Shown: one piece after another, positions 13,673 through 56,781 of the stretch
Layout: each line of letters starts with the position of its first letter
Numbering within the stretch: position 1 is the stretch's first letter
IMG/VR virus record: IMGVR_UViG_3300020045_006445
Coordinates: 1-58,563 of that record
Reading direction: 5' to 3' (one strand)
Source of the DNA: a virus
Lineage: Duplodnaviria > Caudoviricetes
DNA: 58,563 nt
Notes under the pieces: model-generated
The model's database searches: none
What the model saw: the letters and a program-made list of their open reading frames with translations, nothing else
Told to the model about the DNA's origin: nothing
Position numbers and translations under genes: made by a program

Positions 13673-13845
13673 ATTTAGAATTTGTATAAACAGCATTAAC
13701 CTATTGCACAACCCAAAATAACACATTACTTTTGATTTGTTCTTCTCAGGAACCCACACAAAAAATATTTAAAAGCCCAACGTCGCCAACTACGTTTCCC
13801 TGAGAAGAACCTAAACGGCCAATTACGTTTGGGCTTTAACTTTTT
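13673..13845 (+). promoter_or_regulatory. Promoter with upstream Fur-like box and interleaved-helix leader
   Basis: Box ATTTAGAATTTGTATAAAC 13673-13691; TTG 13704; TACTTTTG 13727-13734; 12-bp pair 13739-13750/13799-13810 crossing 13772-13783/13825-13837. Confidence 0.7.
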
Positions 13846-13859
13846 AATACATTTTGGTT

Positions 13860-14084
13860 ATGACTAAAGTAGAACAACTTACACAATTAGGTATTATTGG
13901 CGACATACGCCAAAGAAATGGTGTTGACGCTGACGATGCGGCCGAAGATGAAAACATCAACAAAATGACTAACGACGGTATTTTAAAAGCCTACGCTGGT
14001 TGGCACTTGGGCGACCCTTATTGGTGGACAATATTTAAAAACCAATTTGACGCATTAGAACGAATGGATAAACTAACCAAATAA
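13860..14084 (+). CDS. Hypothetical protein
   Basis: ATG 13860 after structured leader; GDIRQR-G...GWHLGDPYWW. Confidence 0.65.
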   Translation: MTKVEQLTQLGIIGDIRQRNGVDADDAAEDENINKMTNDGILKAYAGWHLGDPYWWTIFKNQFDALERMDKLTK

Positions 14085-14167
14085 CCCGCTCTTAGACCGT
14101 TCGCCTTACTGGGTTCTCACTTCTTGGGCAATAATCGGAGGGGAGCGGGTTTTAAAACTACAACAAA

Positions 14168-14377
14168 ATGACACAAGAATTAATAATTGAAAAAATGACC
14201 GAAGCGGGCGTTAAAAACTTGAAAGAATTTGGTTATCCTGCGGTAAATTCAGAAAATATTTTTACCGACATTATATACGCTGGGTTTTTCAAATCCATGC
14301 TTAAAGACAACAAAGGAAGTTCAAAACAAATCGACGATGCAATTGATGTGTTGTTGGCTAAAATCAAAACGGAATGA
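14168..14377 (+). CDS. Hypothetical protein
   Basis: AGVKNLKEFGYP...IFTDIIY..FFKSML. Confidence 0.65.
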   Translation: MTQELIIEKMTEAGVKNLKEFGYPAVNSENIFTDIIYAGFFKSMLKDNKGSSKQIDDAIDVLLAKIKTE

Positions 14378-14535
14378 TACAAAAACTACTATGCCTAATC
14401 GGCTTTCACAAATGGCAACTAATCTCATCGCATTACAGAATGGATTGTTACGGTGAAAAATACGAGAATAAAGAACGCTGCGAAGTTTGCGGTGTTGAAC
14501 GGATTGTTAAATCAGAAAATCAGATGTTTGTATAA
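14374..14535 (+). CDS. DUF1660-like small zinc-binding protein (53 aa, not in ORF track)
   Basis: KLLCLIGFHKW...CEVCG. Confidence 0.55.
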   Translation: MIQKLLCLIGFHKWQLISSHYRMDCYGEKYENKERCEVCGVERIVKSENQMFV

Positions 14536-14894
14536 TGGAAAATAAAGACAGATTGAAAGTTGGATTAAAGGTTTGGACAAGAGGTTCTGGCAGACGCGCT
14601 TTAGATTCTGAAATGATTAATGAATGTATTGTTTCAAAAGTTGGTAAAAAATATTTTGAACTAAATAATGACAGTCGATATAAATATCAAATTGAAAACT
14701 TGAGAATCGTTAGCGACTTTAGCAGTTCGGTCGTTTATTTTGAAAAGCAACCGATTCTTGACGAAATTGAGTTAGCTGAAACAAGGGAGTTTTTAAGAAA
14801 GTCTTTTGACACGCTTTCTCATACACGTTCAAAATACTCACTCGATCAGTTAAGACGGGTTAAACAAATACTAGACGAATCATGCGAATCATAA
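14535..14894 (+). CDS. Hypothetical protein (beta-barrel, VSKVGKKYF)
   Basis: LKVG-KVW...VSKVGKKYF motif. Confidence 0.65.
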   Translation: MENKDRLKVGLKVWTRGSGRRALDSEMINECIVSKVGKKYFELNNDSRYKYQIENLRIVSDFSSSVVYFEKQPILDEIELAETREFLRKSFDTLSHTRSKYSLDQLRRVKQILDESCES

Positions 14895-15070
14895 ACCTAA
14901 CCCCGCTAACAACGCAACAAATAGCCCGTCGAGCAAACAACAGTCGCGCAGTTGAACGATTTGCAAAGTGCCGCCCATTCACACAAGAAATGAAAAAACA
15001 AGCCCGCACAGCGCAAATAATTGAATTTTGCAATAATGCGATGCCGAATTGGTTGAAATTTAAAAATTAG
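14882..15070 (+). CDS. Hypothetical protein
   Basis: Overlapping small ORF. Confidence 0.45.
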   Translation: MRIINLTPLTTQQIARRANNSRAVERFAKCRPFTQEMKKQARTAQIIEFCNNAMPNWLKFKN

Positions 15071-15075
15071 AAGAT

Positions 15076-15330
15076 ATGATGTTAGGAAACTTACCTGTAA
15101 AACAGATGGAACAAAGATTAGGAATTGAATTTCCTCAAGACGTTAGCGATTTTATGAATCAAAATCACCAAGCCAACGCAAACGATATTAAGACAGGTAA
15201 ATGGCACTGTTTCGATTTACCTTTTCATTTGGTTTGTGGGGATTTAGAAACCGCTACCAAAATATACAATTCAGTAAAAGACAGATCGTCCGAGTGCAAA
15301 GTAACTTTGCAAATATCAATCAGTAATTAA
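15076..15330 (+). CDS. Hypothetical protein
   Basis: LGNL-V-QME-RLGI...WHCFDLPF. Confidence 0.65.
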   Translation: MMLGNLPVKQMEQRLGIEFPQDVSDFMNQNHQANANDIKTGKWHCFDLPFHLVCGDLETATKIYNSVKDRSSECKVTLQISISN

Positions 15331-16797: not shown

Positions 16798-16934
16798 TTT
16801 AGAACCATTCCAAACCAACAATTCATTACCTTTACATATTGCCAAACGTCGTACTTTGGCTAACAAAATCAAAGGCTTTCCGATTGAACCGTGTACGACT
16901 TTTAGCGGGGAGATTGGGAAGCTTTAATCTTTTT
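16797..16934 (+). promoter_or_regulatory. Fur-like box promoter and structured leader of recombination/replication operon
   Basis: ATTTAGAACCATTCCAAAC 16797-16815, 11-bp gap, TACCTTTA 16827-16834; GTCGTAC 16848-16854 pairs with GTACGAC 16893-16899 inside hairpin 16871-16885/16912-16925. Confidence 0.65.
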
Positions 16935-18928: not shown

Positions 18929-18997
18929 GGCAATATAGGGGATTTTTCCGAAAACTTTTTATTTAACATTTTAAATCGCCCGTAACTGGGCTTTTTT

Positions 18998-22834: not shown

Positions 22835-23097
22835 AATGGTTTAAATATTACGATAATTGCAAAATAATTTTTAAACCAACGAAAATGTTAAAAAATGATG
22901 GTTTAAAAATTAGTTTTGAATATTTAAACCTTATCAAAATGATAATCCTTGAATATATCACAAAAAAAAGAATTGTTTTTTACGAATTAAAATTAAAACA
23001 TAATTTTTAAACCAATAAATTCGCAATGGTGCGTTGGTTTAAAAAACCCCTTATAGGGAGGGGTTTTTAAACAGCACCAAATTAATATTTAAACCAT
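22835..23097. promoter_or_regulatory. Candidate replication origin
   Basis: AT-rich gap with GGTTTAAA/TTTAAACC at 22838, 22870, 22900, 22923, 23006, 23036, 23088 and an inverted repeat 23027-23079. Confidence 0.6.
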
Positions 23098-27560: not shown

Positions 27561-27692
27561 TTGCACATAATAAAATAAACATTACATTTGCGTTAAACTG
27601 TGTGAAGATGCACAGCACCTGTTTTTATAATGATAACACCAAAATATACAATCAAAGCCTCTAATCGGATTTAATATCTGATTGGGGCTTTA
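27561..27692 (+). promoter_or_regulatory. Head-operon promoter with hairpin leader
   Basis: TTG 27561, TACATTTG 27583-27590; hairpins CTGTGTGAAGATGCACAG and AAAGCCTCTAATCGGA...TCTGATTGGGGCTTT. Confidence 0.6.
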
Positions 27693-27714
27693 TTCATTTA
27701 AACCATAAAAGACT

Positions 27715-40595: not shown

Positions 40596-40622
40596 AAGCC
40601 GCTCGACACGTTTGGGCGGCTT
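40596..40622 (+). terminator. Intrinsic terminator
   Basis: AAGCCGCTC...GGGCGGCTT followed by TATTT. Confidence 0.65.
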
Positions 40623-40660
40623 ATTTAGTTTGTTTCTTAATTGGGATTGGTGTAGGTTTG
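40623..40660 (+). promoter_or_regulatory. Moron promoter with Fur-like box
   Basis: ATTTAGTTTGTTTCTTAAT 40623-40641, 11-bp gap, TAGGTTTG 40653-40660. Confidence 0.6.
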
Positions 40661-41487: not shown

Positions 41488-41524
41488 AAAAATCCGTTTT
41501 CGTGGTTGTTAACGGATTTTTTTA
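41488..41524 (+). terminator. Intrinsic terminator
   Basis: AAAAATCCGTT...AACGGATTTTTTT. Confidence 0.75.
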
Positions 41525-41537
41525 TTATCTTCGCATC

Positions 41538-46949: not shown

Positions 46950-47160
46950 TAGATATCTAGTTACAGGATTTCCAAATCAAGTGGTTTTGCAATGGCAGAA
47001 TGACTATGCGTTAATGAGCAAAGGAGATTTCAAGGCGATTGAAAACGCGGCAATTGCAGACGAGGCAACTTGGGGCGCAGGAAACGTCTTTACCGAAAGT
47101 TTGGATTTGGTGGCGATTGGCCCTCGTGGAACCAAGCCACACGGAAATACGCCTTTATAA
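46942..47160 (+). CDS. Small hypothetical protein
   Basis: 72 aa ending IGPRGTKPHGNTPL. Confidence 0.55.
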   Translation: MINRYLVTGFPNQVVLQWQNDYALMSKGDFKAIENAAIADEATWGAGNVFTESLDLVAIGPRGTKPHGNTPL

Positions 47161-47603
47161 AACTGATTTCAAACAACAACCTTATAATCCTGCTGACAAT
47201 TTACGCGGCAGGATTATTTGTCATTGAGGCACTGGGTAGGTTATGGTACATCAAATCCTCGTCGTTGGTGGACGAGCTTTTTTATTTTGCGGTTGTTTGT
47301 GTGTTGGCAATAAGGAACGCCTATGAATCGACAGTTTGGGATAGAAAGATTTACAAGGTTATGCTTGGGGCTAATTTTGCCCTATCCGTTATCGGGATAT
47401 ACGATGCACTATGTGTTTGGGGCATCAAGAGCAGTTATTTGTTTATTGGCTATACGAATCAGGAGTTTGGCGAAGTGGAGCAACAGATAAGCCAATACAC
47501 GGGCTATATGTGCTGCAACTTCATTGTATGGATGATTGTCCTTACCCCTTTTTTCGCCTTGGCATTGGTGAAGGGAACGGATTATTTGCGTAGGACAAGT
47601 TAA
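47070..47603 (+). CDS. Multi-pass membrane protein (start uncertain)
   Basis: About four hydrophobic segments. Confidence 0.55.
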   Translation: MGRRKRLYRKFGFGGDWPSWNQATRKYAFIKLISNNNLIILLTIYAAGLFVIEALGRLWYIKSSSLVDELFYFAVVCVLAIRNAYESTVWDRKIYKVMLGANFALSVIGIYDALCVWGIKSSYLFIGYTNQEFGEVEQQISQYTGYMCCNFIVWMIVLTPFFALALVKGTDYLRRTS

Positions 47604-47726
47604 TTTATTACATTTGCATACCGAACCACCAAAAGGGATGCATACCTTGTTCGGACGCCACGCTTGTTGATTATATCGGCAATGCCCAAAAGACCCTAGC
47701 TCAATAGCTGTAATGGGTCTTTTTTT
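47586..47726 (+). ncRNA. Candidate small RNA (promoter, hairpin, terminator; no ORF)
   Basis: TTG 47586, TACATTTG 47609-47616, CCGAAC/GTTCGG stem, terminator AAAAGACCC...GGGTCTTTTTTT. Confidence 0.45.
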
Positions 47727-47821
47727 ATACAATAAACCACCCCAATTCAACGTTATCCACAGTTAAGTTGAGTTAATTCCCGCCACCAAGTCACCTACTG
47801 CTTGGTGGCGGTTTAATTTAT

Positions 47822-47892
47822 AAAAAAAACGCCCATTTCGAACTAATGGGCGTTTTAAATTGAGGGGAATCGTATTAACACAAGCAAATATA
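47822..47892 (-). ncRNA. Candidate minus-strand small RNA
   Basis: TATATTTG on minus strand (47885-47892); 12-bp stem 47826-47837/47845-47856 followed by a U-run on the minus strand. Confidence 0.35.
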
Positions 47893-47924
47893 ATGATTTT
47901 TATTAAACCTATTGTAACTAATTA

Positions 47925-48030
47925 ATTTATATTGGTTCTTAATAGGAAATTGCGTAGGTTTGTCATTCGCTACAACACTAACAATTTAAAGCCTCTCTTC
48001 TTGTAGCGAGTTGATGGGCTTATTTTTTAT
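47925..48030 (+). promoter_or_regulatory. Fur-like box promoter with interleaved-helix leader
   Basis: ATTTATATTGGTTCTTAAT 47925-47943, 11-bp gap, TAGGTTTG; TCGCTACAA 47967-47975 pairs with TTGTAGCGA 48001-48009. Confidence 0.6.
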
Positions 48031-48031
48031 T

Positions 48032-48394
48032 ATGAGCAAAGTAAAAGATTATTTTGGAGAAAAATTTTTGAGCGAATCAGAAAACATTAAACTCGATTTC
48101 ATTCACGCAGAAATGGAAAACAACTACGAAAAGGGTGCAATGACTTTGAATTGGCAATTGACAATCAATGTTGGACAAAACGATGAAAGCGGACACGTCG
48201 ATGCGTTGATTGTAAATTTTTCACACGCACAGTACCCAACACTTTTAGTTGAAGATGACAAAGAGCAAACGCCTGAATTTTCAATCATTCAATTGCCTAA
48301 CGGTTGGGATAAGCAAACAGTTGTTGATCTCGTCGCAAAATATCGCAAAGAAATCGAACTAGCGATTGATGAATTTGAACTGGAAGATATTTAG
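48032..48394 (+). CDS. Acidic hypothetical protein
   Basis: Likely start ATG 48032. Confidence 0.6.
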   Translation: MSKVKDYFGEKFLSESENIKLDFIHAEMENNYEKGAMTLNWQLTINVGQNDESGHVDALIVNFSHAQYPTLLVEDDKEQTPEFSIIQLPNGWDKQTVVDLVAKYRKEIELAIDEFELEDI

Positions 48395-48495
48395 AATAAT
48401 TCTAAACAAAATATATTGTATATTTGTTTTGCAAGACAGATTGTACGTCAATCTACGGGTCATACCCAAAAGCCGTTCTTACGAGCGGCTTTTTT
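48389..48495 (+). ncRNA. Candidate Fur-box-controlled small RNA (~65 nt)
   Basis: ATTTAGAATAATTCTAAAC 48389-48407, 11-bp gap, TATATTTG 48419-48426, two hairpins, terminator 48468-48495. Confidence 0.5.
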
Positions 48496-48562
48496 CTTTA
48501 CAATTTTTACCCCCGTTTCGCGTTATTTAATATCTTTGGCTTACTAATCAAACATTTACACT

Positions 48563-48787
48563 ATGACACTTAGCGATTCCGTAAAGCCTATATTGGCATT
48601 TACAATAGTAGTGCTTGCTTTTGCATACTTTTTTTTAACCACTTTTACAGGCGTTAAGCCAAACGATCAGATATTAATTGCTATTGTGGGAGTTATGGGA
48701 TTAGCTACCGGATACTATTTTGGTAATAGTTCGGGAAGCGCCAAAAAGGATGAAATTATACAAGCACAAGTTGATAATAAAAAATAA
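48563..48787 (+). CDS. Holin-like two-TM protein
   Basis: Two TM helices, GYYFGNSSGSAKKD; TATCTTTG promoter 48531. Confidence 0.6.
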   Translation: MTLSDSVKPILAFTIVVLAFAYFFLTTFTGVKPNDQILIAIVGVMGLATGYYFGNSSGSAKKDEIIQAQVDNKK

Positions 48788-48886
48788 TAACTTAAAACAG
48801 TAGAATATGAGAGATTTATTAGTTTGGGTTGTCATTGGCAATCCACAAGACCTAACAACCATTTAACCAATTAAAATCAAAACATA

Positions 48887-49075
48887 ATGAAAAACAACAA
48901 AACAACAATCGGAACAATCTTTACGGTTATCTCATTGATCCCACAGGCGATCCAATCGCTTAGCCTTGCAACAGTTCCGCAATGGTTGGTAACTACGGGT
49001 TTGGTGTGTGCCGCACTTTCTTTCATTTACGTTGGTGTGTCTGCACAGGACGCGCCTGAAACACCTGCGAAGTAA
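48887..49075 (+). CDS. Holin-like two-TM protein
   Basis: MKNNKTTIG...AQDA pattern of small phage holins. Confidence 0.55.
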   Translation: MKNNKTTIGTIFTVISLIPQAIQSLSLATVPQWLVTTGLVCAALSFIYVGVSAQDAPETPAK

Positions 49076-49254
49076 TGCGTAACCTTATACAAATTACCCG
49101 ACCAAAGCCCTCAAACGAGGCTGAAAAAAGAGCAGAGAAAGCCGTCATCGACACATTGGAAGCGGCAGGTTGGAATGTACGCATTGAGAACCAAAGCGGT
49201 ACATTGAAGTATGAAACGCCAAAAGCGAAAGAGGATGCAGAAACTAAGCAGTAA
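49075..49254 (+). CDS. Small hypothetical protein (59 aa, not in ORF track)
   Basis: ATG overlapping the previous stop. Confidence 0.45.
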   Translation: MRNLIQITRPKPSNEAEKRAEKAVIDTLEAAGWNVRIENQSGTLKYETPKAKEDAETKQ

Positions 49255-49456
49255 AGGTGAAAAAATGCTACAAGACTTGAAAGATTATTTCAAAAATACT
49301 CCTCGTGAGATTGTTTTGAGGCAGTGGGAAGAAACACGCGAAAGATGCAAAAATATAAAATCACCAACCGTTGATGATTTTTTTGAATCATTATCTTTAA
49401 ATTTTGATTGCACCGCCACAATAGTAAACCCAAATGGAACGGAAACGTCAGCATAG
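49235..49456 (+). CDS. Hypothetical protein
   Basis: LKDYF-NTPRE-V...W...PTVDDF motif. Confidence 0.55.
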   Translation: MQKLSSKGEKMLQDLKDYFKNTPREIVLRQWEETRERCKNIKSPTVDDFFESLSLNFDCTATIVNPNGTETSA

Positions 49457-49676
49457 CATAGCGCGAGAAAGCGTATTGAACGAAGCGGGAGGTATCGTAC
49501 TTTGCCTGTTCCTGTCCTTTATGTTTGTTTCGCTTGGCCTTATGTATGATTTGGCAAAGGAATACACATACGCCCTTAGAAAGCCTTACGAAACGGTAAT
49601 GTTTGGGATTGGCATTATATGCTTTATCGGAGCTATTATGTTTTGGTTTCGTATGCATCGGAAGTTGAATCCGTAG
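49434..49676 (+). CDS. Small two-TM membrane protein
   Basis: Two hydrophobic segments. Confidence 0.5.
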   Translation: MERKRQHSIARESVLNEAGGIVLCLFLSFMFVSLGLMYDLAKEYTYALRKPYETVMFGIGIICFIGAIMFWFRMHRKLNP

Positions 49677-49810
49677 TTTATAACCATTCTTAATAAATAA
49701 TGTTGTAGGTTTGTATTGTTCGGTCAGGAACATAACAAAATTTAGTTGAGTTGATATTCAACCTTTGAGAACAACCCTGACACCTGACCGTGTTGGGGTT
49801 TTCTCTTTTA
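49676..49810 (+). promoter_or_regulatory. Fur-like box promoter with interleaved-helix leader
   Basis: GTTTATAACCATTCTTAAT 49676-49694, 11-bp gap, TAGGTTTG; CGGTCAGG 49721-49728 pairs with loop CCTGACCG 49783-49790. Confidence 0.65.
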
Positions 49811-49822
49811 AAATTATTTATT

Positions 49823-49993
49823 ATGGGATGTGATATACACATGTTTACAGAAACAAAAAAATCAATCAACAGTATTGAAAAATGGGTTAATGTGGATGAT
49901 TTTAGACCAAATCCTATAACACCAAACCGCCATATTCCCCTTACTTTGCAATTTATTGGTTGTGGGTGCGTTACTAAGACAGAATTTGTTTAG
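49823..49993 (+). pseudogene. Probably truncated MGCDIH-family phage gene
   Basis: MGCDIHMFTE...KW-NVD N-terminus, then an apparently unrelated tail and stop after 56 aa. Confidence 0.4.
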
Positions 49994-50023
49994 ATTTGTC
50001 AAACGTTACCCCAAACACACCGC

Positions 50024-50362
50024 ATGGAGCATATTGAAGAAACCGAATCTAAATTATTTTTAGGGTTTATAAAAATGAGTGATCGGAATCGGATAATCGG
50101 TTATACGGTTGCCATTATGCTTTTTTCGGGTTATCTTTTAAATGAAGCGAGAAAAACGGTTATTGAAACTAAAGATCAATCTTACAGAGATTTAAAAACC
50201 CTTTACGACGAACGAGGCGTTGAGAATAAAGAGTTGAAGCAGGAAAATAAAAGTTTGATGATTGAAAATACAGCACTTAGACAGCCAGAGAATAAGTTGC
50301 TTGATTCCATTATAAAAATGAATATTGAACTGAAAGCTGAACTTAAAACGCAAAAAAAATGA
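50024..50362 (+). CDS. Membrane protein with coiled coil (lysis region)
   Basis: One TM helix plus heptad repeats; TAGATTTG at 49991. Confidence 0.6.
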   Translation: MEHIEETESKLFLGFIKMSDRNRIIGYTVAIMLFSGYLLNEARKTVIETKDQSYRDLKTLYDERGVENKELKQENKSLMIENTALRQPENKLLDSIIKMNIELKAELKTQKK

Positions 50363-50586
50363 GCAAAACTACTTTGATATTGCTAGCGTCCGTAATTATG
50401 CTTCTTTGCATAAGTGCCGAGCCGAAGCAAACGCCACTTATCAAAGGCTACACTTACCAAAATATTGATGATATGGATGTGGCCAGAAAAGAATACAATC
50501 GCGCAAAACAAACCAATGAACGCAAAAAAGAGCAGGCAGCATCTACGGCAGCCGAAAGAAACTTTGCATTGGTTAAAAACGATTGA
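50359..50586 (+). CDS. Small exported protein
   Basis: Signal-like N-terminus. Confidence 0.5.
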   Translation: MSKTTLILLASVIMLLCISAEPKQTPLIKGYTYQNIDDMDVARKEYNRAKQTNERKKEQAASTAAERNFALVKND

Positions 50587-50767
50587 TTATGACCCCACTA
50601 GACGAAGACGAAACCGAATTTTACGAATAGGATATGGAAAAGAGATTTTTAAGATCGTTGGAAAGCGCAAAGGCTTATGTGGATTCAAAAACGCCCGAAG
50701 AACTCGATGCGGTAATGAGCGACTTTGATGACATTGATGTTTATTATTATTTTGACTATCCAGACTT

Positions 50768-51220
50768 ATGAAACTAGACAAAGCAGGAGCAGAACTTATT
50801 ATGCAATTTGAGGGATTGCGTTTAAAGCCATATTTGGATAGCGTAAATGTGCCTACAATCGGGTATGGAACTACTTACTATCCGGACGGTCGAAAAGCAA
50901 CAATGCAGGATGCGACAATTTCGAAAGAACGCGCATTCGAACTGTTAACCGTTACCGCGAATAAATTTGCCTCAGGCGTTGCGAAACTTATTGCGCGGCC
51001 AGTCAATCAAAACCAATTTAATGCCCTTGTTTCGATTTCCTACAATATCGGCTTGGGCAACTTCAAAAAATCCACATTATTACGCAAGGTCAATTTCAAT
51101 CCCAACGATCCGGCAATTGCTTTGGAATTTGCCAAGTGGAATAAGGCAGGCGGCAAGGTTATTAAAGGCTTGACCAATAGACGCAAAATTGAAGCGGATT
51201 TGTATTTTGACGCATCGTAA
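50768..51220 (+). CDS. Endolysin, GH24 lysozyme
   Basis: FEGLRLKPYLDSVNVPTIGYGTT (E-x8-D-x5-T), QNQFNALVS-YNIG, STLLRK-N, GLTNRR-E. Confidence 0.95.
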   Translation: MKLDKAGAELIMQFEGLRLKPYLDSVNVPTIGYGTTYYPDGRKATMQDATISKERAFELLTVTANKFASGVAKLIARPVNQNQFNALVSISYNIGLGNFKKSTLLRKVNFNPNDPAIALEFAKWNKAGGKVIKGLTNRRKIEADLYFDAS

Positions 51221-51298
51221 TTTAGAATCATTCCAAAAGAACTATTCACTATTTTTGAATTGTAATTAACCGCCCTCAATTACGTTGGGGGCTTTTTT
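51220..51298 (+). promoter_or_regulatory. Fur-like box promoter with terminator-containing leader
   Basis: ATTTAGAATCATTCCAAAA 51220-51238, 11-bp gap, TATTTTTG 51250-51257; GTAATT/AATTAC crossing GCCCTCAAT/GTTGGGGGC plus T6. Confidence 0.65.
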
Positions 51299-51306
51299 GA
51301 TATTAT

Positions 51307-51708
51307 ATGGAAGCAAGAGAATTAAGAATAGGGAATTTGGTTTTTGGAATGGGATTGGTAAAACCTATATGCAAAGTGTCAAGACTTAACGATACGGGTA
51401 AATGCAGGCAGATAATAGCCATTTCAGATGATGGAGAAAGATTTGACTCCGACGAAGTTGACCCAATTCCAATAACGGAGGAATTGCTGTTGCGTTTTGG
51501 ATTCTATAAACCAGAGGGAAACAAACATCTTTATTCACACGAAACTTTGGACGTTGAAGTTCAGGTTCAAGGCAAAAGAGTGGCTGTATGTATTGTTGAC
51601 TACGAAAACCCTGCAACAACCCATTACATAATGCATACTGACAAAGTTCACACTTTTCAGAACGCTATTTTCGCCCTAACCGCCTCCGAACTCCAACTTA
51701 AAAAATAA
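51307..51708 (+). CDS. Conserved Bacteroidota phage protein (ELRIGN family)
   Basis: MEARELRIGNLV...PIPITEELLLRFGF...VHTFQNAIFALT--EL. Confidence 0.75.
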   Translation: MEARELRIGNLVFGMGLVKPICKVSRLNDTGKCRQIIAISDDGERFDSDEVDPIPITEELLLRFGFYKPEGNKHLYSHETLDVEVQVQGKRVAVCIVDYENPATTHYIMHTDKVHTFQNAIFALTASELQLKK

Positions 51709-51871
51709 CCCCGAAGGATATGACAGCGAAAGAATGGTTCTACAGCCTTGATTGGGGCGAACGAAATAGGCTATCATTAAAGCATAGAAACACTTATGCT
51801 TACGGTGTTTTTTCAGATCAGACCTTTGAAGAAATAATGAGTAAAGAAGTAAAAACCGAAATTGAAAAGAT

Positions 51872-52381
51872 ATGAAAGAGATTAGGTTTTCACCATTGCG
51901 TAGAATTAAAAAGACTGGAAAAATGACTGTTGCGTCTTATATGCAATGGCGAAAAGTAAAGGTTGCCGATTATTCGGAGTTCATTTTATCGTTGGGCGAC
52001 TTTTCACAACTTGACCCTAACGAACGCGTCCATAATCACAAAGGCGAATTGTTATTTTGGTATAATCACGAAAGTCCTGATTCGTTGAGAATGCTTACAA
52101 TTTTCGACATTAAAGAAAGTATGGATGAAAACGGTTTCGATTCATCGGTTGTTGATGGAGAGGAATATAAACTTCGGTCAATGGAAGACAGATTACATTG
52201 GAGTGTCAATGGGTTTGATTGCGATGCTGTTCCCGTATTCAGTCATTATACGCAAGATTACATTTCAACGCATTTTTGCAATAGCGTAAAAGAATTTGAA
52301 ATCTTGACCGTTGAAACTGTTTTAAAATGGTATTGGTGGTTTATATTTAATTTAAGAAACACAACCCTTAACTATAAATAA
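51872..52381 (+). CDS. Hypothetical protein
   Basis: ORF 169 aa. Confidence 0.6.
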   Translation: MKEIRFSPLRRIKKTGKMTVASYMQWRKVKVADYSEFILSLGDFSQLDPNERVHNHKGELLFWYNHESPDSLRMLTIFDIKESMDENGFDSSVVDGEEYKLRSMEDRLHWSVNGFDCDAVPVFSHYTQDYISTHFCNSVKEFEILTVETVLKWYWWFIFNLRNTTLNYK

Positions 52382-52531
52382 AATTAAAAATTATGGAAAC
52401 ATTATCACCCGATGCGCAGATAGTTGCTCTAGTCGGAATATTCATTTGTTTAGGAGTATTCATTTGGCAACTTTTTAAAACAATCCGAGAGCAATGAATA
52501 ACGACTACGAACCCACACCAAACCATTAACT

Positions 52532-52858
52532 ATGGAACAATCCCAACCAATAAGCAAAAGAATCTTCTGGTTCTTAATGATTGCGCTAGGCTTATCGCTT
52601 ACATTGAACTACTGCCAATGGAAGCACGGCCAAGAAACCGCATTTGCCGATGCTGGCAAAGCAGAACGAACCGAAGCGGCTGTACTCGAAACAAGGATTG
52701 ACAGCGCAAATACAGCAGCAGACACCAAATCAACCGCAAACATAAAGGCGGCAATCCAAACCAAAAAAACCAACAACGATGAAAAATACATTCCTGCTCC
52801 TGCTCGTGACTTTAAGTCCGCTGCTATCGCAATCACAGAAAGTGACATTTCCGAATGA
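52532..52858 (+). CDS. Membrane-anchored protein, possible spanin-like component
   Basis: N-terminal TM, Ala-rich helix, overlaps the next gene. Confidence 0.4.
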   Translation: MEQSQPISKRIFWFLMIALGLSLTLNYCQWKHGQETAFADAGKAERTEAAVLETRIDSANTAADTKSTANIKAAIQTKKTNNDEKYIPAPARDFKSAAIAITESDISE

Positions 52859-53189
52859 TACAACGGCTTGCTACGGGCAAAAAACTGTTTTGGCTATCAA
52901 TCGTGACCTGGACGCGGGAAAGTGGTTTAAAGACGCTTATTCTCGCAAAAAAGACACGGTTAATGTACTTGCCGACAAAATCATTAAGATTGAAACGGAA
53001 AACATTGAATTGCGCGCTTGGGTTAATTCAATCAGTACCCAACGCGACGCACTCATCGAATCAGCCCACAACGCAGAAACAAAAGAAGCGGTTAAGGTTG
53101 ACAGAAAGAAGTGGTATAACCGCAAATGGCCGTACTTGGTCTTGGGCGGTGCTGTTGGTGGGTATTGTGGATTTCAATTGGCGAGGTGA
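52779..53189 (+). CDS. Exported coiled-coil protein with C-terminal TM, possible spanin-like component
   Basis: Signal peptide, coiled coil, KKWYNRKW plus hydrophobic tail. Confidence 0.45.
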   Translation: MKNTFLLLLVTLSPLLSQSQKVTFPNDTTACYGQKTVLAINRDLDAGKWFKDAYSRKKDTVNVLADKIIKIETENIELRAWVNSISTQRDALIESAHNAETKEAVKVDRKKWYNRKWPYLVLGGAVGGYCGFQLAR

Positions 53190-53341
53190 TGAGAAAATTA
53201 TACAGCATACACCCGAAAAAGTTCTGGTTATCAATAAAACCCGCTAAAGATTGTTTCTTTGCTAGGCGAAATGGACGTATTGGAAAGTTAATTTTTGGCT
53301 ATTCTGTTTGCCTTAGAATGTTTAATATCGACATACTATAA
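53189..53341 (+). CDS. Small hypothetical protein
   Basis: ATG coupled to the previous stop (MRKLYSIHPK). Confidence 0.4.
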   Translation: MRKLYSIHPKKFWLSIKPAKDCFFARRNGRIGKLIFGYSVCLRMFNIDIL

Positions 53342-53471
53342 TGACCACAATAAAAATACACGCCCCGCAAAAGGCAACCGTCAACGATAAGACCTGCGAC
53401 AACCTGACCGACGAAGAACGGGCAGCAGTCTGGCAGTTCATTGACGACTGGCTGCGAATGTTTCCCAAACC

Positions 53472-53501
53472 AACCGCTTTGTAATTGAAGCGGTTTTTTT
53501 T
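53472..53501 (+). terminator. Intrinsic terminator ending the lysis region
   Basis: AACCGCTT...AAGCGGTTTTTTTT. Confidence 0.8.
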
Positions 53502-53515
53502 ATTGCCCAGTCGCT

Positions 53516-53598
53516 ATTTAGAACTTATATAAATAACATAGATTATTGTAAATTAATTTAGATTATTCTAGGTTAATCAAAATGTATGTGTATCTTTG
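53516..53598 (+). promoter_or_regulatory. Promoter of the early small-gene array, with upstream Fur-like half-matches
   Basis: ATTTAGAACTTATATAAAT 53516-53534, ATTTAGATTATTCTAG 53556-53571, TATCTTTG 53591-53598. Confidence 0.55.
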
Positions 53599-53626
53599 TA
53601 TGGTAATCAAATAACAAATAGGAATT

Positions 53627-54049
53627 ATGAAAAACAGAGACGGTTTAGAAAATAGTAATCATTGGGCTACACCTCCAGAAGTTTACGATCCATTAAATGA
53701 GGAATTTAATTTTGATTTCGACCCTTGTCCGTTGAATGGGGAACTTAAATTCGATGGTTTGTCAATTGAATGGGGAATGTCTAATTTTTGTAACCCGCCT
53801 TATGATCGCGTTAATAAACCTTTATTTATCAAAAAAGGATTCGAGGAATGGAAAAAAGGCAAAACAGTAGTATTCCTTATTCCTACAGCAACGGGTACTA
53901 AACAATTTCACGAACTCATGTTACCACACGCTGAAATAAGATTCGTTAAAGGTAGAATTTCGTTTCACGGATACAATACTAAAGGCAAATTTTCTACAAA
54001 GAACAAAGGAAAACACGATAGTATGATTGTAATCTTTAGAGGTAAATAA
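53627..54049 (+). CDS. dam: Phage DNA N6-adenine methyltransferase (Dam family)
   Basis: WATP, EFNFDFDPCP, DGL-IEW, NPPY, VVFLIP, IRFVKGRISF. Confidence 0.9.
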   Translation: MKNRDGLENSNHWATPPEVYDPLNEEFNFDFDPCPLNGELKFDGLSIEWGMSNFCNPPYDRVNKPLFIKKGFEEWKKGKTVVFLIPTATGTKQFHELMLPHAEIRFVKGRISFHGYNTKGKFSTKNKGKHDSMIVIFRGK

Positions 54050-54089
54050 TAATCAAATCAGGGGTGCGGCTGTACACGCGCTTTTAATC

Positions 54090-54272
54090 ATGCCAGCAAA
54101 AAAGAAAGCACCCGGGGAAAAAAAAGGCACAGTTGCCGCCCTAATCCAACAAAAGAAAATAGACGCGTTGACTTATGCCAAATGTCGGGAAATTGCAGAA
54201 GTTGCGATTGACAAGGCGTATGATGCAGCAGTTGCCGCCCACAAAACGCATTACTCACCACTAAAGAATTGA
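54090..54272 (+). CDS. Small basic protein, possible DNA-binding regulator
   Basis: MPAKKKAPGEKK start, 60 aa. Confidence 0.45.
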   Translation: MPAKKKAPGEKKGTVAALIQQKKIDALTYAKCREIAEVAIDKAYDAAVAAHKTHYSPLKN

Positions 54273-54273
54273 A

Positions 54274-54534
54274 ATGATGGAAAAGAAATATTCAAAAGAA
54301 CAGTTTGAAGGATATACTCACAGATTTATTGTGCGGCTTTCTGTAGATAATGATTGGCGAAATGATGTCAATTTGCACATTTACTCAAACTCAGATAGCC
54401 TTCAAGAACTAGAAGATTTTATCAACGAAAAAAAATCTGATAAAGTTATTGCGTTTAGGATTGAGCATAGAGCATCAAAAGAACAAGATGAATTGGCCAC
54501 TAAACTTATCGATGAAACTTTAAACGGATTTTAA
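54274..54534 (+). CDS. Hypothetical protein
   Basis: ORF in array. Confidence 0.6.
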   Translation: MMEKKYSKEQFEGYTHRFIVRLSVDNDWRNDVNLHIYSNSDSLQELEDFINEKKSDKVIAFRIEHRASKEQDELATKLIDETLNGF

Positions 54535-54549
54535 CCCAACCCAAACGAA

Positions 54550-55017
54550 ATGAAAACGACGAAAAAATTTAAAATAGGCGATCAGGTAAAAGTTTCAAAA
54601 CCTTACTCGAATGCGTCTGAATTTAGCCTTAAAGTCGAAGGTTCGGCTATAAATGGCATTTACGGACAAGAAAACTGGGCTGATAAAGTATTTTTTGTAA
54701 TGGGCAAATACAAACTGTGTAAGTTCGACCACAATCCAAATATTTTTGGCGCATATCCAGTTGGTGACGGTGAAAAAATCTTAGGTTATGTCTATAACGA
54801 TGCGTTGGATACTTGGCACCACCACTTAGCGGATTTCGAAAAAATGCGGTCGGCTTTGGAACAAATCGAACAATGGAAAACACCAGAAACGGGTAAGTTT
54901 TGGGATGCAGAAAAAACCCAGCCGACAAGTTATGAAGTAGAATATGGGTCAAATGGTGTTCGGGATTACTTTAGGAGTTTAGCCAAAAACGCTTTAACGC
55001 CTTCGGGTGAAAAATAA
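54550..55017 (+). CDS. Hypothetical mosaic protein (slot 1B)
   Basis: Shares MKT start, HLADF-KMRSALE and LTPSGEK with 6889-7233. Confidence 0.7.
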   Translation: MKTTKKFKIGDQVKVSKPYSNASEFSLKVEGSAINGIYGQENWADKVFFVMGKYKLCKFDHNPNIFGAYPVGDGEKILGYVYNDALDTWHHHLADFEKMRSALEQIEQWKTPETGKFWDAEKTQPTSYEVEYGSNGVRDYFRSLAKNALTPSGEK

Positions 55018-55022
55018 TTGAT

Positions 55023-55178
55023 ATGAGCACAAAACGAAAAAAGAAAAAAAGAAAGCCATCCGTTAAAATTAATAAAACCATCAATAAACTTGGGTGGGGT
55101 CAAGTTTCAAAAAACTACTCAACTATTAGGAATATTGAAAGAATAAACGATGAGTTGAGGGATTCACACCAACAATAA
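55023..55178 (+). CDS. Small basic protein (slot 2B, 51 aa, not in ORF track)
   Basis: MSTKRKKKKRK...DSHQQ*, ending in anchor L2. Confidence 0.55.
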   Translation: MSTKRKKKKRKPSVKINKTINKLGWGQVSKNYSTIRNIERINDELRDSHQQ

Positions 55179-55208
55179 CCCTCTCGAAAATAACTTAAAT
55201 TTATAATT

Positions 55209-55394
55209 ATGAAATCAGGAATGTACGGCGAAATGCCAATTATCAACTTAGGAAAATACTCAATTTCAGACATGAGTGATTCGCCAGAGAACGAAACTGT
55301 TTGGATATCTGACAATGAAACAAGCGAAGGCGGTGAGTTTCAAAAAAGCAAGGTAGACGAAGTTATCGGGAAGTTATTCAACAAGGAATTTTAA
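55209..55394 (+). CDS. Small acidic protein (slot 3B)
   Basis: VWI....EGGEF motif; between L2 and L3. Confidence 0.6.
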   Translation: MKSGMYGEMPIINLGKYSISDMSDSPENETVWISDNETSEGGEFQKSKVDEVIGKLFNKEF

Positions 55395-55425
55395 CCCTCC
55401 CGACAAGGGAATAAATAACACTGGA

Positions 55426-55875
55426 ATGGAAACATCGAAAAAAGATTTTTACGTTGGCGAAGTTAAAGCAATTTACAAACGAAAATCAAAAATTGTATCC
55501 CCGTATATAAAAAGCAACCTTGAAGCAGAGATATACATTCGTTCTTTTTTCCCAAAAGACACAATAGAGCACAGGGAAATATTAGGCGCTATTTTTTTAA
55601 ATAACGGAAATATGGCGATTGGACATACGTTTTTAAGTGAGGGAGGAATCACTGGCACCGTGGTTGATATTCGGCTTTTATTTCAAAAAGCGCTTCTATG
55701 TAACGCAGTCGGTTTTATATTGTTCCATAACCACCCCAGTGGATCAACGAAACCATCAAGTGCAGATGTTCTTATTGCTAAAAAACTTAAGAAAGCTGGC
55801 GAAATAATGGACATTAGAATGCTTGACAGTTTGATTATAACTACCCAAAAATGTGTGTCTGTAATTAATGACTAA
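55426..55875 (+). CDS. radC: RadC-like JAB/MPN domain protein
   Basis: E...LNNGN, SEGGITGTVVDIR, HNHPSG-KPSSAD, LDSLIIT. Confidence 0.9.
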   Translation: METSKKDFYVGEVKAIYKRKSKIVSPYIKSNLEAEIYIRSFFPKDTIEHREILGAIFLNNGNMAIGHTFLSEGGITGTVVDIRLLFQKALLCNAVGFILFHNHPSGSTKPSSADVLIAKKLKKAGEIMDIRMLDSLIITTQKCVSVIND

Positions 55876-55925
55876 CCAATCGAACCCATCAAATAAATAA
55901 CACTGGAATTATGACGAAAGCAGAG

Positions 55926-56781
55926 AATTTTTTGTATATTTACTTTGCTAATCCGTTCATACAAAATCAAAAATCCGCTTGACCCACATTGCCTTCTGTC
56001 ATTCCTTGACAAACGGATTAGCCTTTGTTGCTAAGAGCGGTTTTTATTTATGGAAAAGATTTGTGGGATTTATAAGATAACTAGCCCAAGCGGAAGGATT
56101 TATATAGGTAAAAGCATTGATATCTTGCGTAGATTTTCAAGTTATAGATCCCTAAATTGTAAGTCACAAAGAAAACTATATGCAAGTTTGTGTAAGTATA
56201 CACCAGAGAGGCATGTTTTTGAAGTAATAGAACTTTGCTCAGTGGATATAATTATAGAGAGGGAAAGGCATTGGCAGGAACATTTTGACGTATTAAACAT
56301 TGGATTAAACTGTTTGCTTTCAAAAACAAGCAACACTCAAATGGTTTTGTCCCAAGAAACCAAAAATAAAATATCCAAATCTTTAAAAGGCAAAAGATTA
56401 GGTATAAAAATGTCTCCTGAAAATGTTGAAAAAATAAGACAGCGGATGATTGGTAGAAAACCCAGCGATATTACTCGAAAAAAAATGAGTGACGCAAGAA
56501 TTGGAAAGCCGCTTTCTGATTTAACAAAAAGGAATATGAGTACCAGGTTTAAAGGCAGAAAATATCCAAATTGGGTAAAAGAAAAACGATCTAAAAAACT
56601 AAAAGGAAAATCTATTGAATATTTTAAAGTTAAGATATTGCTTAATAACCAAATATTATTTGGCAGTATAACCGAGGCATCAATAGCCACAAATACTTCA
56701 AGAAGTACAATATCAAATAATTTAACAGGACGATCTAAGTCCACAAAAATAGGAATATGGACGTATCAAAACAAAATGTAA
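55926..56781 (+). mobile_element. Free-standing homing endonuclease insertion
   Basis: Structured leader plus GIY-YIG gene between an orphan start (ATGACGAAAGCAGAG 55911-55925) and the body of the downstream gene. Confidence 0.55.
56050..56781 (+). CDS. GIY-YIG homing endonuclease with NUMOD3 repeats and NUMOD1-like HTH
   Basis: GIYKITSPSGRIYIGKS, ERE-HW, repeated S-ETK-KIS-S-KG units, FGSITEAS. Confidence 0.92.
   Translation: MEKICGIYKITSPSGRIYIGKSIDILRRFSSYRSLNCKSQRKLYASLCKYTPERHVFEVIELCSVDIIIERERHWQEHFDVLNIGLNCLLSKTSNTQMVLSQETKNKISKSLKGKRLGIKMSPENVEKIRQRMIGRKPSDITRKKMSDARIGKPLSDLTKRNMSTRFKGRKYPNWVKEKRSKKLKGKSIEYFKVKILLNNQILFGSITEASIATNTSRSTISNNLTGRSKSTKIGIWTYQNKM

What the first reader, a model, noticed from the sequence alone, without database searches (positions are those of the whole stretch)
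13739..56045. Six sequence-unrelated 5' leaders share one interleaved A-B-A'-B' pairing architecture (pseudoknot/attenuator)
Seen: after the -7 element, a segment A pairs perfectly with A' located in the loop of a downstream hairpin B/B', which is followed by a U-rich run and the start codon. A begins 4 nt after the -7 element in four cases. The six A/A' pairs are 13739-13750/13799-13810 (12 bp), 16848-16854/16893-16899 (7 bp), 47967-47975/48001-48009 (9 bp), 49721-49728/49783-49790 (8 bp, where A' is the entire loop), 51262-51267/51278-51283 (6 bp, overlapping the stem) and 55947-55957/56012-56022 (11 bp). Topology is conserved while sequence is not, which suggests selection on RNA structure. 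Five of the six follow Fur-like boxes. Inference: a cis-regulatory RNA switch in which the transcript 5' end competes with a terminator or translation-blocking hairpin, conceptually like P1/P4 c4/CI-controlled leaders.
Basis: partly seen in the sequence, partly recalled or inferred. Interest (0 to 1): 0.75.

Follow-up and report, generated by a model that had tools for sequence, protein, structure and literature searches.

The report
Kissing-loop leader RNAs in a phage
Several genes of this Bacteroidota-type phage, and many genes in related uncultured phages, are preceded by a promoter-linked RNA leader in which a small hairpin at the very start of the transcript base-pairs, loop to loop, with the tip of a terminator-like hairpin just before the start codon, an arrangement that matched no curated RNA family and that the paper searches run here did not find described.

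Summary
All six A/A' pairs are exact complements at the stated coordinates. The interleaved topology holds for five; the sixth (51262) is weak.

The architecture is sharper than first described:
- A sigmaA-type -7 box (TAnnTTTG).
- A short hairpin HP1 starting at about +1, with A in its loop.
- An A-rich linker.
- A long GC-based hairpin HP2 with a U-run, with A' in its apical loop.
- 13-21 nt, then ATG.

This is an intramolecular kissing-loop fold, compatible with HP2 rather than competing with it. Leaders 1, 2 and 4 fit fully. Leaders 3 and 6 pair a linear 5' end, starting at predicted +1, to the HP2 loop.

The fold recurs with unrelated, covarying sequences in related viral contigs:
- 29 of 48 promoter+terminator+ATG leaders have a complement of 7 nt or more, against 3.1 expected by permutation.
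- 17 of 24 out-of-sample helicase loci carry it, against 0 of 24 in a mirror control.
- 46 leaders use 34 distinct loop sequences.
- The kissing helix shows compensatory changes.

No Rfam family matches. The RNA structure is well supported. Its function is inferred: a promoter-proximal attenuator plus sequestration of the 5' end. No transcript data were available.

The parts
13727..13734 (+). Leader 1: -7 promoter box TACTTTTG; predicted +1 at 13739
   Evidence: Sequence. The box is reported to span -12 to -5 in Flavobacterium psychrophilum (PMC9723704, passages read).
13739..13753 (+). Leader 1: 5'-terminal hairpin HP1 (GTTC-ttctcag-GAAC). A = 13739-13750, covering the 5' arm and the loop.
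13772..13837 (+). Leader 1: HP2, arms 13772-13780 and 13829-13837, with A' at 13799-13810 inside. T-rich tail 13838-13848, ATG at 13860. A smaller alternative terminator hairpin lies at 13810-13833.
16827..16834 (+). Leader 2: -7 box TACCTTTA, preceded by the box TTTAGAACCATTC at 16798-16810
16841..16860 (+). Leader 2: HP1 (GCCAAA-cgtcgtac-TTTGGC), with A = 16848-16854 in the loop
16872..16925 (+). Leader 2: HP2, a 14-bp outer stem plus an inner stem, with A' = 16893-16899 in the apical loop. T-run 16929-16933, ATG at 16947.
47955..47975 (+). Leader 3: -7 box TAGGTTTG (47955-47962) and a linear 5' segment A = 47967-47975 that starts at predicted +1. There is no HP1.
47989..48029 (+). Leader 3: HP2, arms 47989-47994 and 48016-48021, with A' = 48001-48009 in its 21-nt loop. 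T-run 48023-48028, ATG at 48032.
49706..49732 (+). Leader 4: -7 box TAGGTTTG (49706-49713) and HP1 (TGTTC-ggtcag-GAACA, 49717-49732). A = 49721-49728. The box TTTATAACCATTC lies at 49677-49689.
49773..49800 (+). Leader 4: HP2 (AACCCTGACA / TGTTGGGGTT), with A' = 49783-49790 forming the apical loop. U-run follows, ATG at 49823. The downstream genes run up to the endolysin at 50768-51220.
51250..51298 (+). Leader 5 (doubtful member): -7 box TATTTTTG (51250-51257), A = 51262-51267 at predicted +1, and hairpin 51272-51292 with a 3-nt loop. A' = 51278-51283 overlaps the stem. T-run 51293-51298, ATG at 51307.
55935..55957 (+). Leader 6: -7 box variant TATATTTA (55935-55942) and a linear 5' segment A = 55947-55957 that starts at predicted +1
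55975..56045 (+). Leader 6: weak long-range HP2, arms 55975-55980 and 56035-56040, with A' = 56012-56022 in its 54-nt interior. T-run 56041-56045, ATG at 56050, which opens a GIY-YIG homing endonuclease gene.

Best explanation
These are promoter-coupled 5' leader RNAs with a fixed tertiary fold.

The layout. Transcription starts about 5 nt after a Bacteroidota sigmaA -7 box. The first nucleotides form a short hairpin, HP1. About 20 A-rich nucleotides later comes a long GC-based hairpin with an adjacent U-run, HP2, which has the anatomy of an intrinsic terminator. Another 13-21 nt further on is the start codon. The HP1 loop (A) is complementary to the HP2 apical loop (A'), so the two hairpins dock by a 6-9-bp loop-loop ('kissing') helix. 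In two leaders of the window the unstructured 5' end pairs with the HP2 loop instead, giving a pseudoknot.

A:A' and B:B' are compatible structures, not alternatives.

Most likely mechanism (inferred, not shown). HP2 acts as a promoter-proximal partial terminator, that is, an attenuator, so downstream genes are expressed by read-through. The kissing helix ties the transcript's 5' end to the terminator hairpin. HP1 alone is marginal, so the docking would give a closed, compact leader that hides the 5' end from 5'-end-dependent decay. It would also keep the short U/A-rich stretch before the AUG single-stranded.

Each leader uses its own private loop pair. This would avoid cross-pairing between leaders.

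The confidence given (0.5) is for the whole statement. I put about 0.9 on the fold being real and selected, and about 0.4-0.5 on the functional reading.
For: Structure (shown by computation):
- The complements are exact.
- HP1 carries A in its loop in leaders 1, 2 and 4.
- In the window plus 80 related viral loci, 48 non-identical leaders were chosen only for -7 box + terminator-like hairpin + ATG. Of these, 29 have a complement of 7 nt or more between the upstream segment and the hairpin interior. Permuting partners gives a mean of 3.1 and a maximum of 10 in 5000 trials. Mean longest complement is 6.58, against 4.44 (mirror), 4.23 (direct) and 4.90 (parallel) controls.
- The full-architecture detector finds 61 modules on the coding strand against 15, 7 and 20 in three controls. 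The opposite strand gives 10 against 10.
- Without requiring a promoter or a U-run, the whole excess of kissing pairs carries both features: 28 against 1.
- A' lies in an apical loop in 36 of 46 leaders.
- The 46 leaders use 34 distinct A sequences.
- Compensatory changes: in a 4-sequence family, 17 of 17 pairs are 100% paired and 8 have changes on both sides, 4 of them among the 7 kissing pairs. No shuffle of 500 reaches this, and slid controls pair at 48.5% or less. A second family has 3 of 7 kissing pairs changed on both sides.
- Out of sample: 17 of 24 loci upstream of helicase homologues carry the module, against 0 of 24 in the mirror control.

Position:
- HP1 starts 3-5 nt after the box in 33 of 46 leaders. 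The box spans -12 to -5 in F. psychrophilum (PMC9723704).

Terminator anatomy:
- The U-run is adjacent to HP2 in 28 of 31 box-linked modules.
- 15 of 45 leaders already have a separate terminator-like hairpin ending about 11 nt before the box, so HP2 acts on the promoter's own transcripts.

Stability of HP1:
- HP1 alone is marginal, with a mean stem probability of 0.39.
- The loop duplex averages -9.5 kcal/mol.
Against: - There are no transcript data. The start site, termination at HP2 and the kissing helix itself are all predictions.
- The scan of 46 leaders includes a few evident false positives (L007-1652, L052-3866, L037-1708).
- A 5'-terminal hairpin alone would protect a 5' end, so the protection idea does not by itself explain why the partner must be the terminator loop.
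- Linker length does not grow with hairpin length. Spearman rho is -0.28 and -0.38, so a simple 'linker spans a coaxial rod' geometry is not supported.
- In the nested minimum-free-energy fold, both loops are at least 80% unpaired in only 26 of 46 leaders.
- Leaders 3 and 6 lack HP1. Leader 5 is weak.
- MAFFT could not align window leader 2 with its most similar relative, L011. The apparent compensatory change between them (GTCGTAC/GTACGAC against GTGGTAC/GTACCAC) therefore rests on loop similarity alone.
- The module is absent from the one cultured Flavobacterium phage examined (0 on its coding strand).
Confidence: 0.5

Rival explanations
1. Regulated switch. A:A' pairing prevents or delays folding of the terminator hairpin. 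It forms before the 3' arm of HP2 is made. Some signal or factor that frees or occupies A would then set read-through.
For: - A and A' are both transcribed before B'.
- In leader 1 the complement extends 12 bp into the HP1 stem, and in leader 5 it overlaps the HP2 stem.
- In the GGTCAG family, a second CTGAC copy lies in the 5' arm of HP2, which could let A invade the stem.
- HP2 has terminator anatomy, and downstream genes need read-through.
Against: - A' is confined to the apical loop in 36 of 46 leaders.
- Complementarity is 6-9 nt and usually stops at the loop.
- No mutually exclusive helix is conserved.
- No leader peptide start codon was noticed, by eye, in the linkers of the leaders printed. 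No systematic scan was run.
- Adding 100 nt of upstream RNA does not change predicted HP1 formation (0.39 against 0.39, p = 0.52).
Confidence: 0.17
2. Recognition platform. The kissing complex is a shape-specific, sequence-independent binding site. It could bind RNA polymerase itself, as a cis-acting antiterminator RNA like HK022 put. Alternatively it could bind a phage or host protein, much as Rop binds ColE1 kissing complexes. Either would convert polymerases that start at these promoters into a terminator-resistant form.
For: - Topology is conserved with free sequence.
- The module is obligately linked to a promoter (28 against 1).
- Terminator-like hairpins without promoters occur inside downstream operons, for example 18978-18991 and 14083-14151.
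- The gene set is lambdoid-like: NinB, NinG, O-like, DnaC-like and a Cro/C1 HTH.
- The put and Rop precedents are recalled from memory, not taken from a call.
Against: - No antiterminator-like protein was recognised among the 40 window proteins scanned.
- A terminator is part of the element itself, unlike put.
- There are no functional data.
Confidence: 0.12
3. Stand-alone small RNAs. The promoter-to-U-run unit is an approximately 85-nt non-coding RNA gene whose product is the functional molecule. The adjacent start codon would be served mainly by read-through from upstream.
For: A promoter plus an intrinsic-terminator-like 3' end is the canonical small-RNA gene anatomy. Intergenic sRNAs of Bacteroides with both a start site and a terminator were validated in PMC7366714 (passages read).
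Against: - The distance from HP2 to the ATG is tightly set: median 16.5 nt, interquartile range 13-21.
- The loops that a small RNA would use for targets are occupied by each other.
- Sequences are private to each copy.
- 15 of 45 modules have a terminator-like hairpin just upstream that would block read-through from upstream. The local promoter must then serve the gene.
Confidence: 0.08
4. Chance, or a DNA-level feature. The complements are coincidental matches in A/T-rich intergenic DNA, or they are protein-binding inverted repeats.
For: - Perfect inverted repeats of 8-9 nt are common in the window: 84 of 8 nt and 22 of 9 nt.
- Leader 5 is only 6 bp and A/U-rich.
Against: - Permutation, mirror, direct and strand controls all argue against it.
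- Compensatory changes are present.
- The signal is strand-specific: 61 against 10.
- Every leader has a different sequence, which excludes a shared operator.
Confidence: 0.03

Closest known systems
Antisense kissing complexes of plasmids (ColE1 RNA I/RNA II with Rop; R1 CopA/CopT). Recalled, not from a call.
   Same: Two hairpins pair through fully complementary 6-8-nt apical loops. Specificity lies in private loop sequences, and the shape is conserved.
   Different: Those complexes form between two molecules transcribed from opposite strands and control replication. Here both loops are in one transcript about 20 nt apart, and one hairpin is a terminator-like hairpin in a 5' leader.
Zipper-type transcription attenuator of pLS20-family conjugation operons (PMC13401043; abstract read)
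   Same: It is a leader between a promoter and the first gene. An upstream segment is complementary to a downstream terminator region. It is conserved as an architecture across many elements.
   Different: In the zipper type, the upstream segment pairs with terminator sequence itself and forms a mutually exclusive antiterminator. Here the partner is the terminator's apical loop, so the two structures can coexist. These leaders are about 100 nt long, not 456 nt.
PeSL composite promoter/terminator cassettes of T4-like phages (PMC4122927, passages read; PMC2839356, search listing only)
   Same: Short promoter-plus-stem-loop units sit in front of small accessory genes, in variable regions of phage genomes.
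   Different: - PeSL copies share sequence, and are proposed to recombine for that reason. The copies here are unrelated in sequence.
- In the PST phage figure legend read, the stem-loop lies upstream of the promoter. Here it lies downstream.
- No loop-loop pairing is described for PeSLs.
HK022 put RNAs and lambdoid PR'-tR' late leaders. Recalled, not from a call.
   Same: A structured RNA, or a terminator, lies directly downstream of a phage promoter. Two hairpins act in cis. Genes downstream depend on read-through.
   Different: put contains no terminator and no loop-loop pairing. Lambda has one such late leader controlled by the Q protein, whereas this genome has at least five units. No homology was tested or found.
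5'-terminal stem-loop mRNA stabilisers (E. coli ompA leader, T7 phi10 leader). Recalled, not from a call.
   Same: A hairpin begins within about 2 nt of the predicted 5' end.
   Different: Those stabilisers act alone. Here the hairpin is short and is docked to a second hairpin.

Membership tests
Any curated RNA family (Rfam 15) | A match to a covariance model, at the gathering score or even at a weak E-value | tested here: not met
   - Window: 0 matches at gathering score.
- Window at E up to 5: 3 matches, none on a leader.
- 20 related loci that carry leaders: 0 matches at gathering score.
Intrinsic (Rho-independent) terminator / attenuator | A GC-rich hairpin followed at once by a U-run | tested here: met
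   - HP2 stems of 6-15 bp with at least 3 GC pairs and a T-rich tail.
- 28 of 31 box-linked kissing modules have the tail when it is not required for detection.
Intrinsic (Rho-independent) terminator / attenuator | Location between a promoter and the regulated start codon | tested here: met
   The order -7 box, HP1, HP2, then ATG holds in 46 non-identical leaders. The predicted 5' UTR has a median of 102.5 nt.
Intrinsic (Rho-independent) terminator / attenuator | A mutually exclusive antiterminator structure, or a leader peptide | tested here: not met
   A' lies in the apical loop in 36 of 46 leaders. No conserved competing helix was found. No linker start codon was noticed by eye in the leaders printed.
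Intrinsic (Rho-independent) terminator / attenuator | Transcripts actually end at the U-run | not testable with these tools
   No transcript 3'-end data could be obtained with these tools.
Kissing-loop complex / H-type pseudoknot | Two hairpins whose apical loops are Watson-Crick complementary, or a single strand paired to a hairpin loop | tested here: met
   - Leaders 1, 2 and 4 are loop-loop.
- Leaders 3 and 6 pair a strand to a loop.
- 46 leaders in the window and its relatives fit.
Kissing-loop complex / H-type pseudoknot | Covariation that maintains the inter-loop helix | tested here: met
   - 4 of 7 kissing pairs and 3 of 7 have changes on both sides.
- 34 distinct loop pairs were seen.
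- These are small families of 4 and 5 sequences. No phylogeny-aware test was run.
This feature is recalled, not from a call. | tested here: not met
   The six A sequences of the window all differ. Among 46 leaders there are 34 distinct A sequences.
5'-terminal stem-loop stabiliser | A hairpin within a few nucleotides of the true 5' end | tested here: inconclusive
   HP1 starts 3-5 nt after the -7 box in 33 of 46 leaders, which is about -1 to +2 if the box spans -12 to -5 (PMC9723704). The start site was not measured for this phage.
PeSL cassettes | Sequence-conserved copies within one genome | tested here: not met
   The window's leaders share no sequence beyond the promoter box.

The most novel reading that the evidence does not exclude
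The 5'-hairpin/terminator-loop kissing complex is a new class of cis-acting, sequence-independent transcription-control RNA in Bacteroidota phages. It would be a self-contained 'licence' that only transcripts started at the adjacent promoter can assemble. Polymerase, or a shape-specific protein, would read it to decide termination against processive read-through. Function would be analogous to HK022 put or lambda Q/qut, but built on a loop-loop tertiary contact with the terminator itself.
Probability: 0.15. Interest if true: 0.9.

Novelty: new variant of a known kind. Interest (0 to 1): 0.72.

Why it matters
Gene control in Bacteroidota and their phages is poorly charted. They use no Shine-Dalgarno sequences and have unusual promoters. 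This is a recurrent structured RNA supported by covariation, present several times per genome, in front of replication, lysis-region and homing-endonuclease genes of a large uncultured phage group. It matches no curated RNA family.

It offers three things:
- A compact model, about 100 nt, for how a tertiary loop-loop contact interacts with an intrinsic terminator.
- A likely handle on the timing or dosage of phage early genes.
- A natural set of dozens of orthogonal loop pairs of the same shape, which could serve as parts for RNA engineering.

If it turns out to control termination, it would add a new mechanism to the attenuation repertoire.

Tried and rejected
- Sequencing runs: none was listed for window 47000-56900 and no RNA holder was listed.
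- Named phage collection: no DNA match to two stretches of the window by megablast or blastn. The portal is only about 22% identical to Bacteroides and Flavobacterium phage proteins. The 208-aa protein hits one TM7 phage.
- Relatives of the genes after leaders 1, 3 and 5: none found in viral contigs. Those three leaders therefore have no comparative test of their own.
- GIY-YIG homologues after leader 6: 45 distant loci. None of them carried the module in the scan.
- Geometric test: I tested whether linker length scales with hairpin length. The correlation is negative (rho -0.28, p = 0.06; rho -0.38, p = 0.008), so the idea is not supported.
- Upstream RNA: I tested whether 100 nt of upstream RNA would disrupt HP1, which could distinguish read-through transcripts from promoter-started ones. 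There was no difference.
- A flawed count, since corrected: one search reported 0 of 44 leaders with an upstream terminator. Its search window stopped 20 nt short of the box. One search gives 15 of 45.
- MAFFT alignment of window leader 2 with L011 is out of register. In alignment A3, one of five rows (L050) is misaligned in HP1, and it accounts for all unpaired cells of the kissing helix.
- Cultured Flavobacterium phage FPSV-D22: 0 modules on its coding strand.
- Genome collection scan: 11 loci in metagenome-assembled genomes with mixed labels, 6 of 11 Bacteroidota-type. This is weak support for the host phylum only.
- Paper searches returned no description of this architecture. Supplementary files were not consulted. 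Those of PMC9723704 may hold start-site spacing details that bear on the +1 assignment.
- No covariance model was built.

Full report
**Context**

The window is a complete 58,563-bp contig with 40% GC. Every gene I assigned a family lies on the + strand, apart from one minus-strand regulator. It is a tailed-phage genome with these recognisable genes:
- Small and large terminase, portal and a capsid-type protein at 24-31 kb.
- NinB, O-like/primosomal, DnaC-like and NinG genes at 1.5-6 kb.
- An exonuclease and a helicase at 17.5-20.7 kb.
- An endolysin at 50768-51220.
- A GIY-YIG homing endonuclease at 56050-56781.

The portal is about 22% identical to portals of Bacteroides and Flavobacterium phages. 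The promoters are of the Bacteroidota TAnnTTTG type. No close named relative exists in the phage collection.

**The observation**

All six A/A' pairs are perfect complements at the stated coordinates. Folding each leader gives energies 1.4 to 3.3 SD below dinucleotide shuffles.

Taken alone, short pairs are not remarkable. The window holds 84 perfect inverted repeats of 8 nt and 22 of 9 nt within 110 nt. Repeats of 11 nt or more number 10, against about 1.3 by my own hand estimate, which no call computed. Most of those 10 lie between genes or in one A/T-rich repeat region. The case for the finding therefore has to come from the architecture and from relatives.

**Refined architecture**

In F. 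psychrophilum the -7 box spans -12 to -5 (PMC9723704, passages read). Position +1 is therefore the fifth nucleotide after the box.
- In leaders 1, 2 and 4, A lies in the loop of a short hairpin, HP1, that begins at about +1 to +7. A' lies in the apical region of a long hairpin, HP2, that carries a U-run.
- In leaders 3 and 6, A is a linear segment that starts exactly at predicted +1 and pairs with the interior of HP2.
- In leader 5, the 6-bp A/U-rich match overlaps the HP2 stem. It has no comparative support.

**Relatives**

The 208-aa protein after leader 2 has 352 relatives in viral contigs, and 80 loci were kept. Upstream of this gene, different contigs carry one of three arrangements:
- A module with the same topology but different sequence.
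- A short unstructured leader.
- No promoter.

I then selected leaders only by -7 box + terminator-like hairpin + ATG. This gave 48 non-identical leaders from the window and these loci. Of them, 29 have a complement of 7 nt or more, and 39 have one of 6 nt or more, between the segment upstream of the hairpin and the hairpin interior. Permuting the partners gives 3.1 (maximum 10) and 8.8 (maximum 20) over 5000 permutations. Mirror, direct-repeat and parallel-complement controls average 4.2-4.9 nt, against 6.58 observed.

A detector for the full architecture finds 61 modules on the coding strand, against 15, 7 and 20 in three controls. The other strand gives 10 against 10 (126 sequences, 705,556 nt). 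The listing shows 51 non-identical hits, a few of them evident false positives.

When neither a promoter nor a U-run is required, the background is high: 209 against 183. Modules with both a -7 box 2-10 nt upstream of HP1 and a T-rich tail number 28 against 1. The kissing pair is therefore obligately tied to a promoter and to a U-run.

**Anatomy in 46 leaders**
- HP1 starts 3-5 nt after the box in 33 of 46.
- The HP1 loop is 6-12 nt.
- The complement is 6 nt in 13 leaders, 7 nt in 21, 8 nt in 8 and 9 nt in 4.
- The linker has a median of 20 nt and is 46% A.
- The distance from the end of HP2 to the ATG has a median of 16.5 nt (interquartile range 13-21).
- The predicted 5' UTR has a median of 102.5 nt (interquartile range 97-110).
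- A' lies in an apical loop of HP2 folded alone in 36 of 46.
- There are 34 distinct A sequences, and the loop duplexes average -9.5 kcal/mol.

**Covariation**

In a four-member leader family (alignment A2), the 7 kissing pairs and 10 lower HP2 pairs are 100% paired. Eight pairs have changes on both sides, 4 of them in the kissing helix. No shuffle of 500 reaches the observed values, and sliding the partners by 1-3 columns drops pairing to 40-49%.

In a five-member family (A3), 3 of 7 kissing pairs change on both sides: GTGGTAG/CTACCAC, GTGGAAG/CTTCCAC, GTGGACG/CGTCCAC and GTGGTAA/TTACCAC. All unpaired cells come from one row that MAFFT misaligned.

These families are small, and no phylogeny-aware test was run.

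**Out-of-sample check**

I fetched 25 loci around homologues of a helicase that follows one such leader. Of the 24 with upstream sequence, 17 carry the module ending no more than 45 nt before the helicase ATG, against 0 of 24 in the mirror control. They use 7 distinct loop sequences. By eye, three more carry CTTCTCAC/GTGAGAAG with a longer HP1 loop. Two have the HP2 further upstream, and two lack the module. One of the 24 is the query's own contig.

**What the module is not**
- It is not a known RNA family. Rfam gives nothing on the leaders in the window or in 20 relatives.
- It is not found in the one cultured Flavobacterium phage examined.
- Five paper searches found no description of it.
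- It is not a classical alternative-structure attenuator. The partner of A is the loop, not an arm, and no competing helix is conserved. No leader-peptide start codon was noticed by eye in the linkers printed.
- It is not like P1 c4 or P4 CI, because each leader has a private pair.

**Mechanism (inferred)**

HP2 has the anatomy of an intrinsic terminator, including an A-tract on the 5' side and an adjacent U-run. The start codon is only 13-21 nt beyond it, with no room for another promoter. Downstream genes must therefore be expressed by read-through.

In 15 of 45 leaders, a separate terminator-like hairpin ends about 11 nt before the -7 box. This corrects the flawed count. In those cases HP2 is not needed to stop upstream transcription, so it acts on the promoter's own transcripts. 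That is a promoter-proximal attenuator.

Simple terminator-like hairpins without promoters have short loops and no partner, for example 23045-23065, 33998-34021 and 40592-40626. The kissing partner appears only when the RNA begins just upstream. HP1 also starts at the predicted 5' end and is weak alone, with a mean stem probability of 0.39.

My preferred reading is that the loop-loop helix ties the 5' end to the terminator hairpin. This would make a closed leader that resists 5'-end-dependent decay and leaves the short U/A-rich stretch before the AUG free, while HP2 sets the dose by partial termination. I put about 0.9 on the RNA fold being real and selected, and about 0.4-0.5 on this functional reading.

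Two tests that could have sharpened it were negative or unhelpful:
- Linker length does not scale with hairpin length.
- Upstream RNA does not alter predicted HP1 folding.

The rival readings are a true switch, a shape-specific platform for polymerase or a protein, and stand-alone small RNAs. They remain open and are separable by the mutate-and-rescue experiments listed under next steps.

**Verdict**

Five of the six examples belong to, or are variants of, a recurrent promoter-coupled leader fold. The fold is better described as a kissing-loop or 5'-end-to-terminator-loop contact than as a competing switch.

It is a new variant of known kinds of element: leader attenuators, kissing complexes and 5' stabilisers. 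Comparative support for the structure is strong. There are no experimental data on function.

Noticed in passing
window 22837-23096: At least seven copies, in both orientations, of an approximately 13-nt A/T-rich motif (TGGTTTAAAWATT) surround a simple terminator at 23045-23065, upstream of the packaging genes. They look like iterons: an origin of replication or a cluster of regulator binding sites.
   Followed up: partly
window 6209-6457 (- strand) and 6458-6580: This is the only minus-strand gene I recognised. It encodes an 82-aa Cro/C1-type HTH protein (Pfam HTH_26, E = 1.2e-12). It diverges from the + strand genes across an approximately 120-nt A/T-rich region, which looks like a repressor/switch region.
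   Followed up: partly
window 16798-16810, 49677-49689, 51221-51233; also 48390-48406 (palindromic): The box TTTAGAACCATTC (an imperfect palindrome, AGAAY-N-RTTCT) lies at about -41 to -29 of three leader promoters. It also appears upstream of promoters in relatives L040 and L046-L048. It may be a binding site for a phage regulator or a promoter element.
   Followed up: partly
window 47690-47860: Three simple terminator hairpins lie in tandem within 170 nt at the end of the tail-gene block, just before leader 3.
   Followed up: no
window 14083-14151 and 18978-18991: Terminator-like hairpins with U-runs lie directly before start codons (14168 and 18998) without any promoter or pairing partner. 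The first has a 51-nt interior. The 'hairpin, U-run, about 6-20 nt, ATG' layout also occurs at 27659-27715, 33998-34041 and 41491-41538. Hairpin-then-start-codon junctions therefore seem to be a general habit of this genome.
   Followed up: partly
window 49773-49790; L022, L023, L025, L026, L028, L033, L053 leaders: In the leader family with the HP1 loop GGTCAG, the complement CTGAC occurs twice in HP2. One copy is in the apical loop and one is in the 5' arm. The second copy could let the 5' hairpin invade the stem. This is unexplained.
   Followed up: no
L005-L013, L021, L029, L050, L053, L062, L067; L138, L145, L147, L152: In many relatives, a simple terminator hairpin ends at a fixed distance (about 11 nt, range 6-15) upstream of the -7 box. 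Its U-run then forms the T-rich spacer of the promoter. This is a tightly packed terminator-promoter-leader unit.
   Followed up: partly
L068 5377-5922, L077 4687-5223, L013 1825-2229: By eye, several leaders in relatives precede small proteins that look like HNH/NUMOD-type homing endonucleases. This parallels the GIY-YIG endonuclease after window leader 6. No family search was run on them.
   Followed up: no
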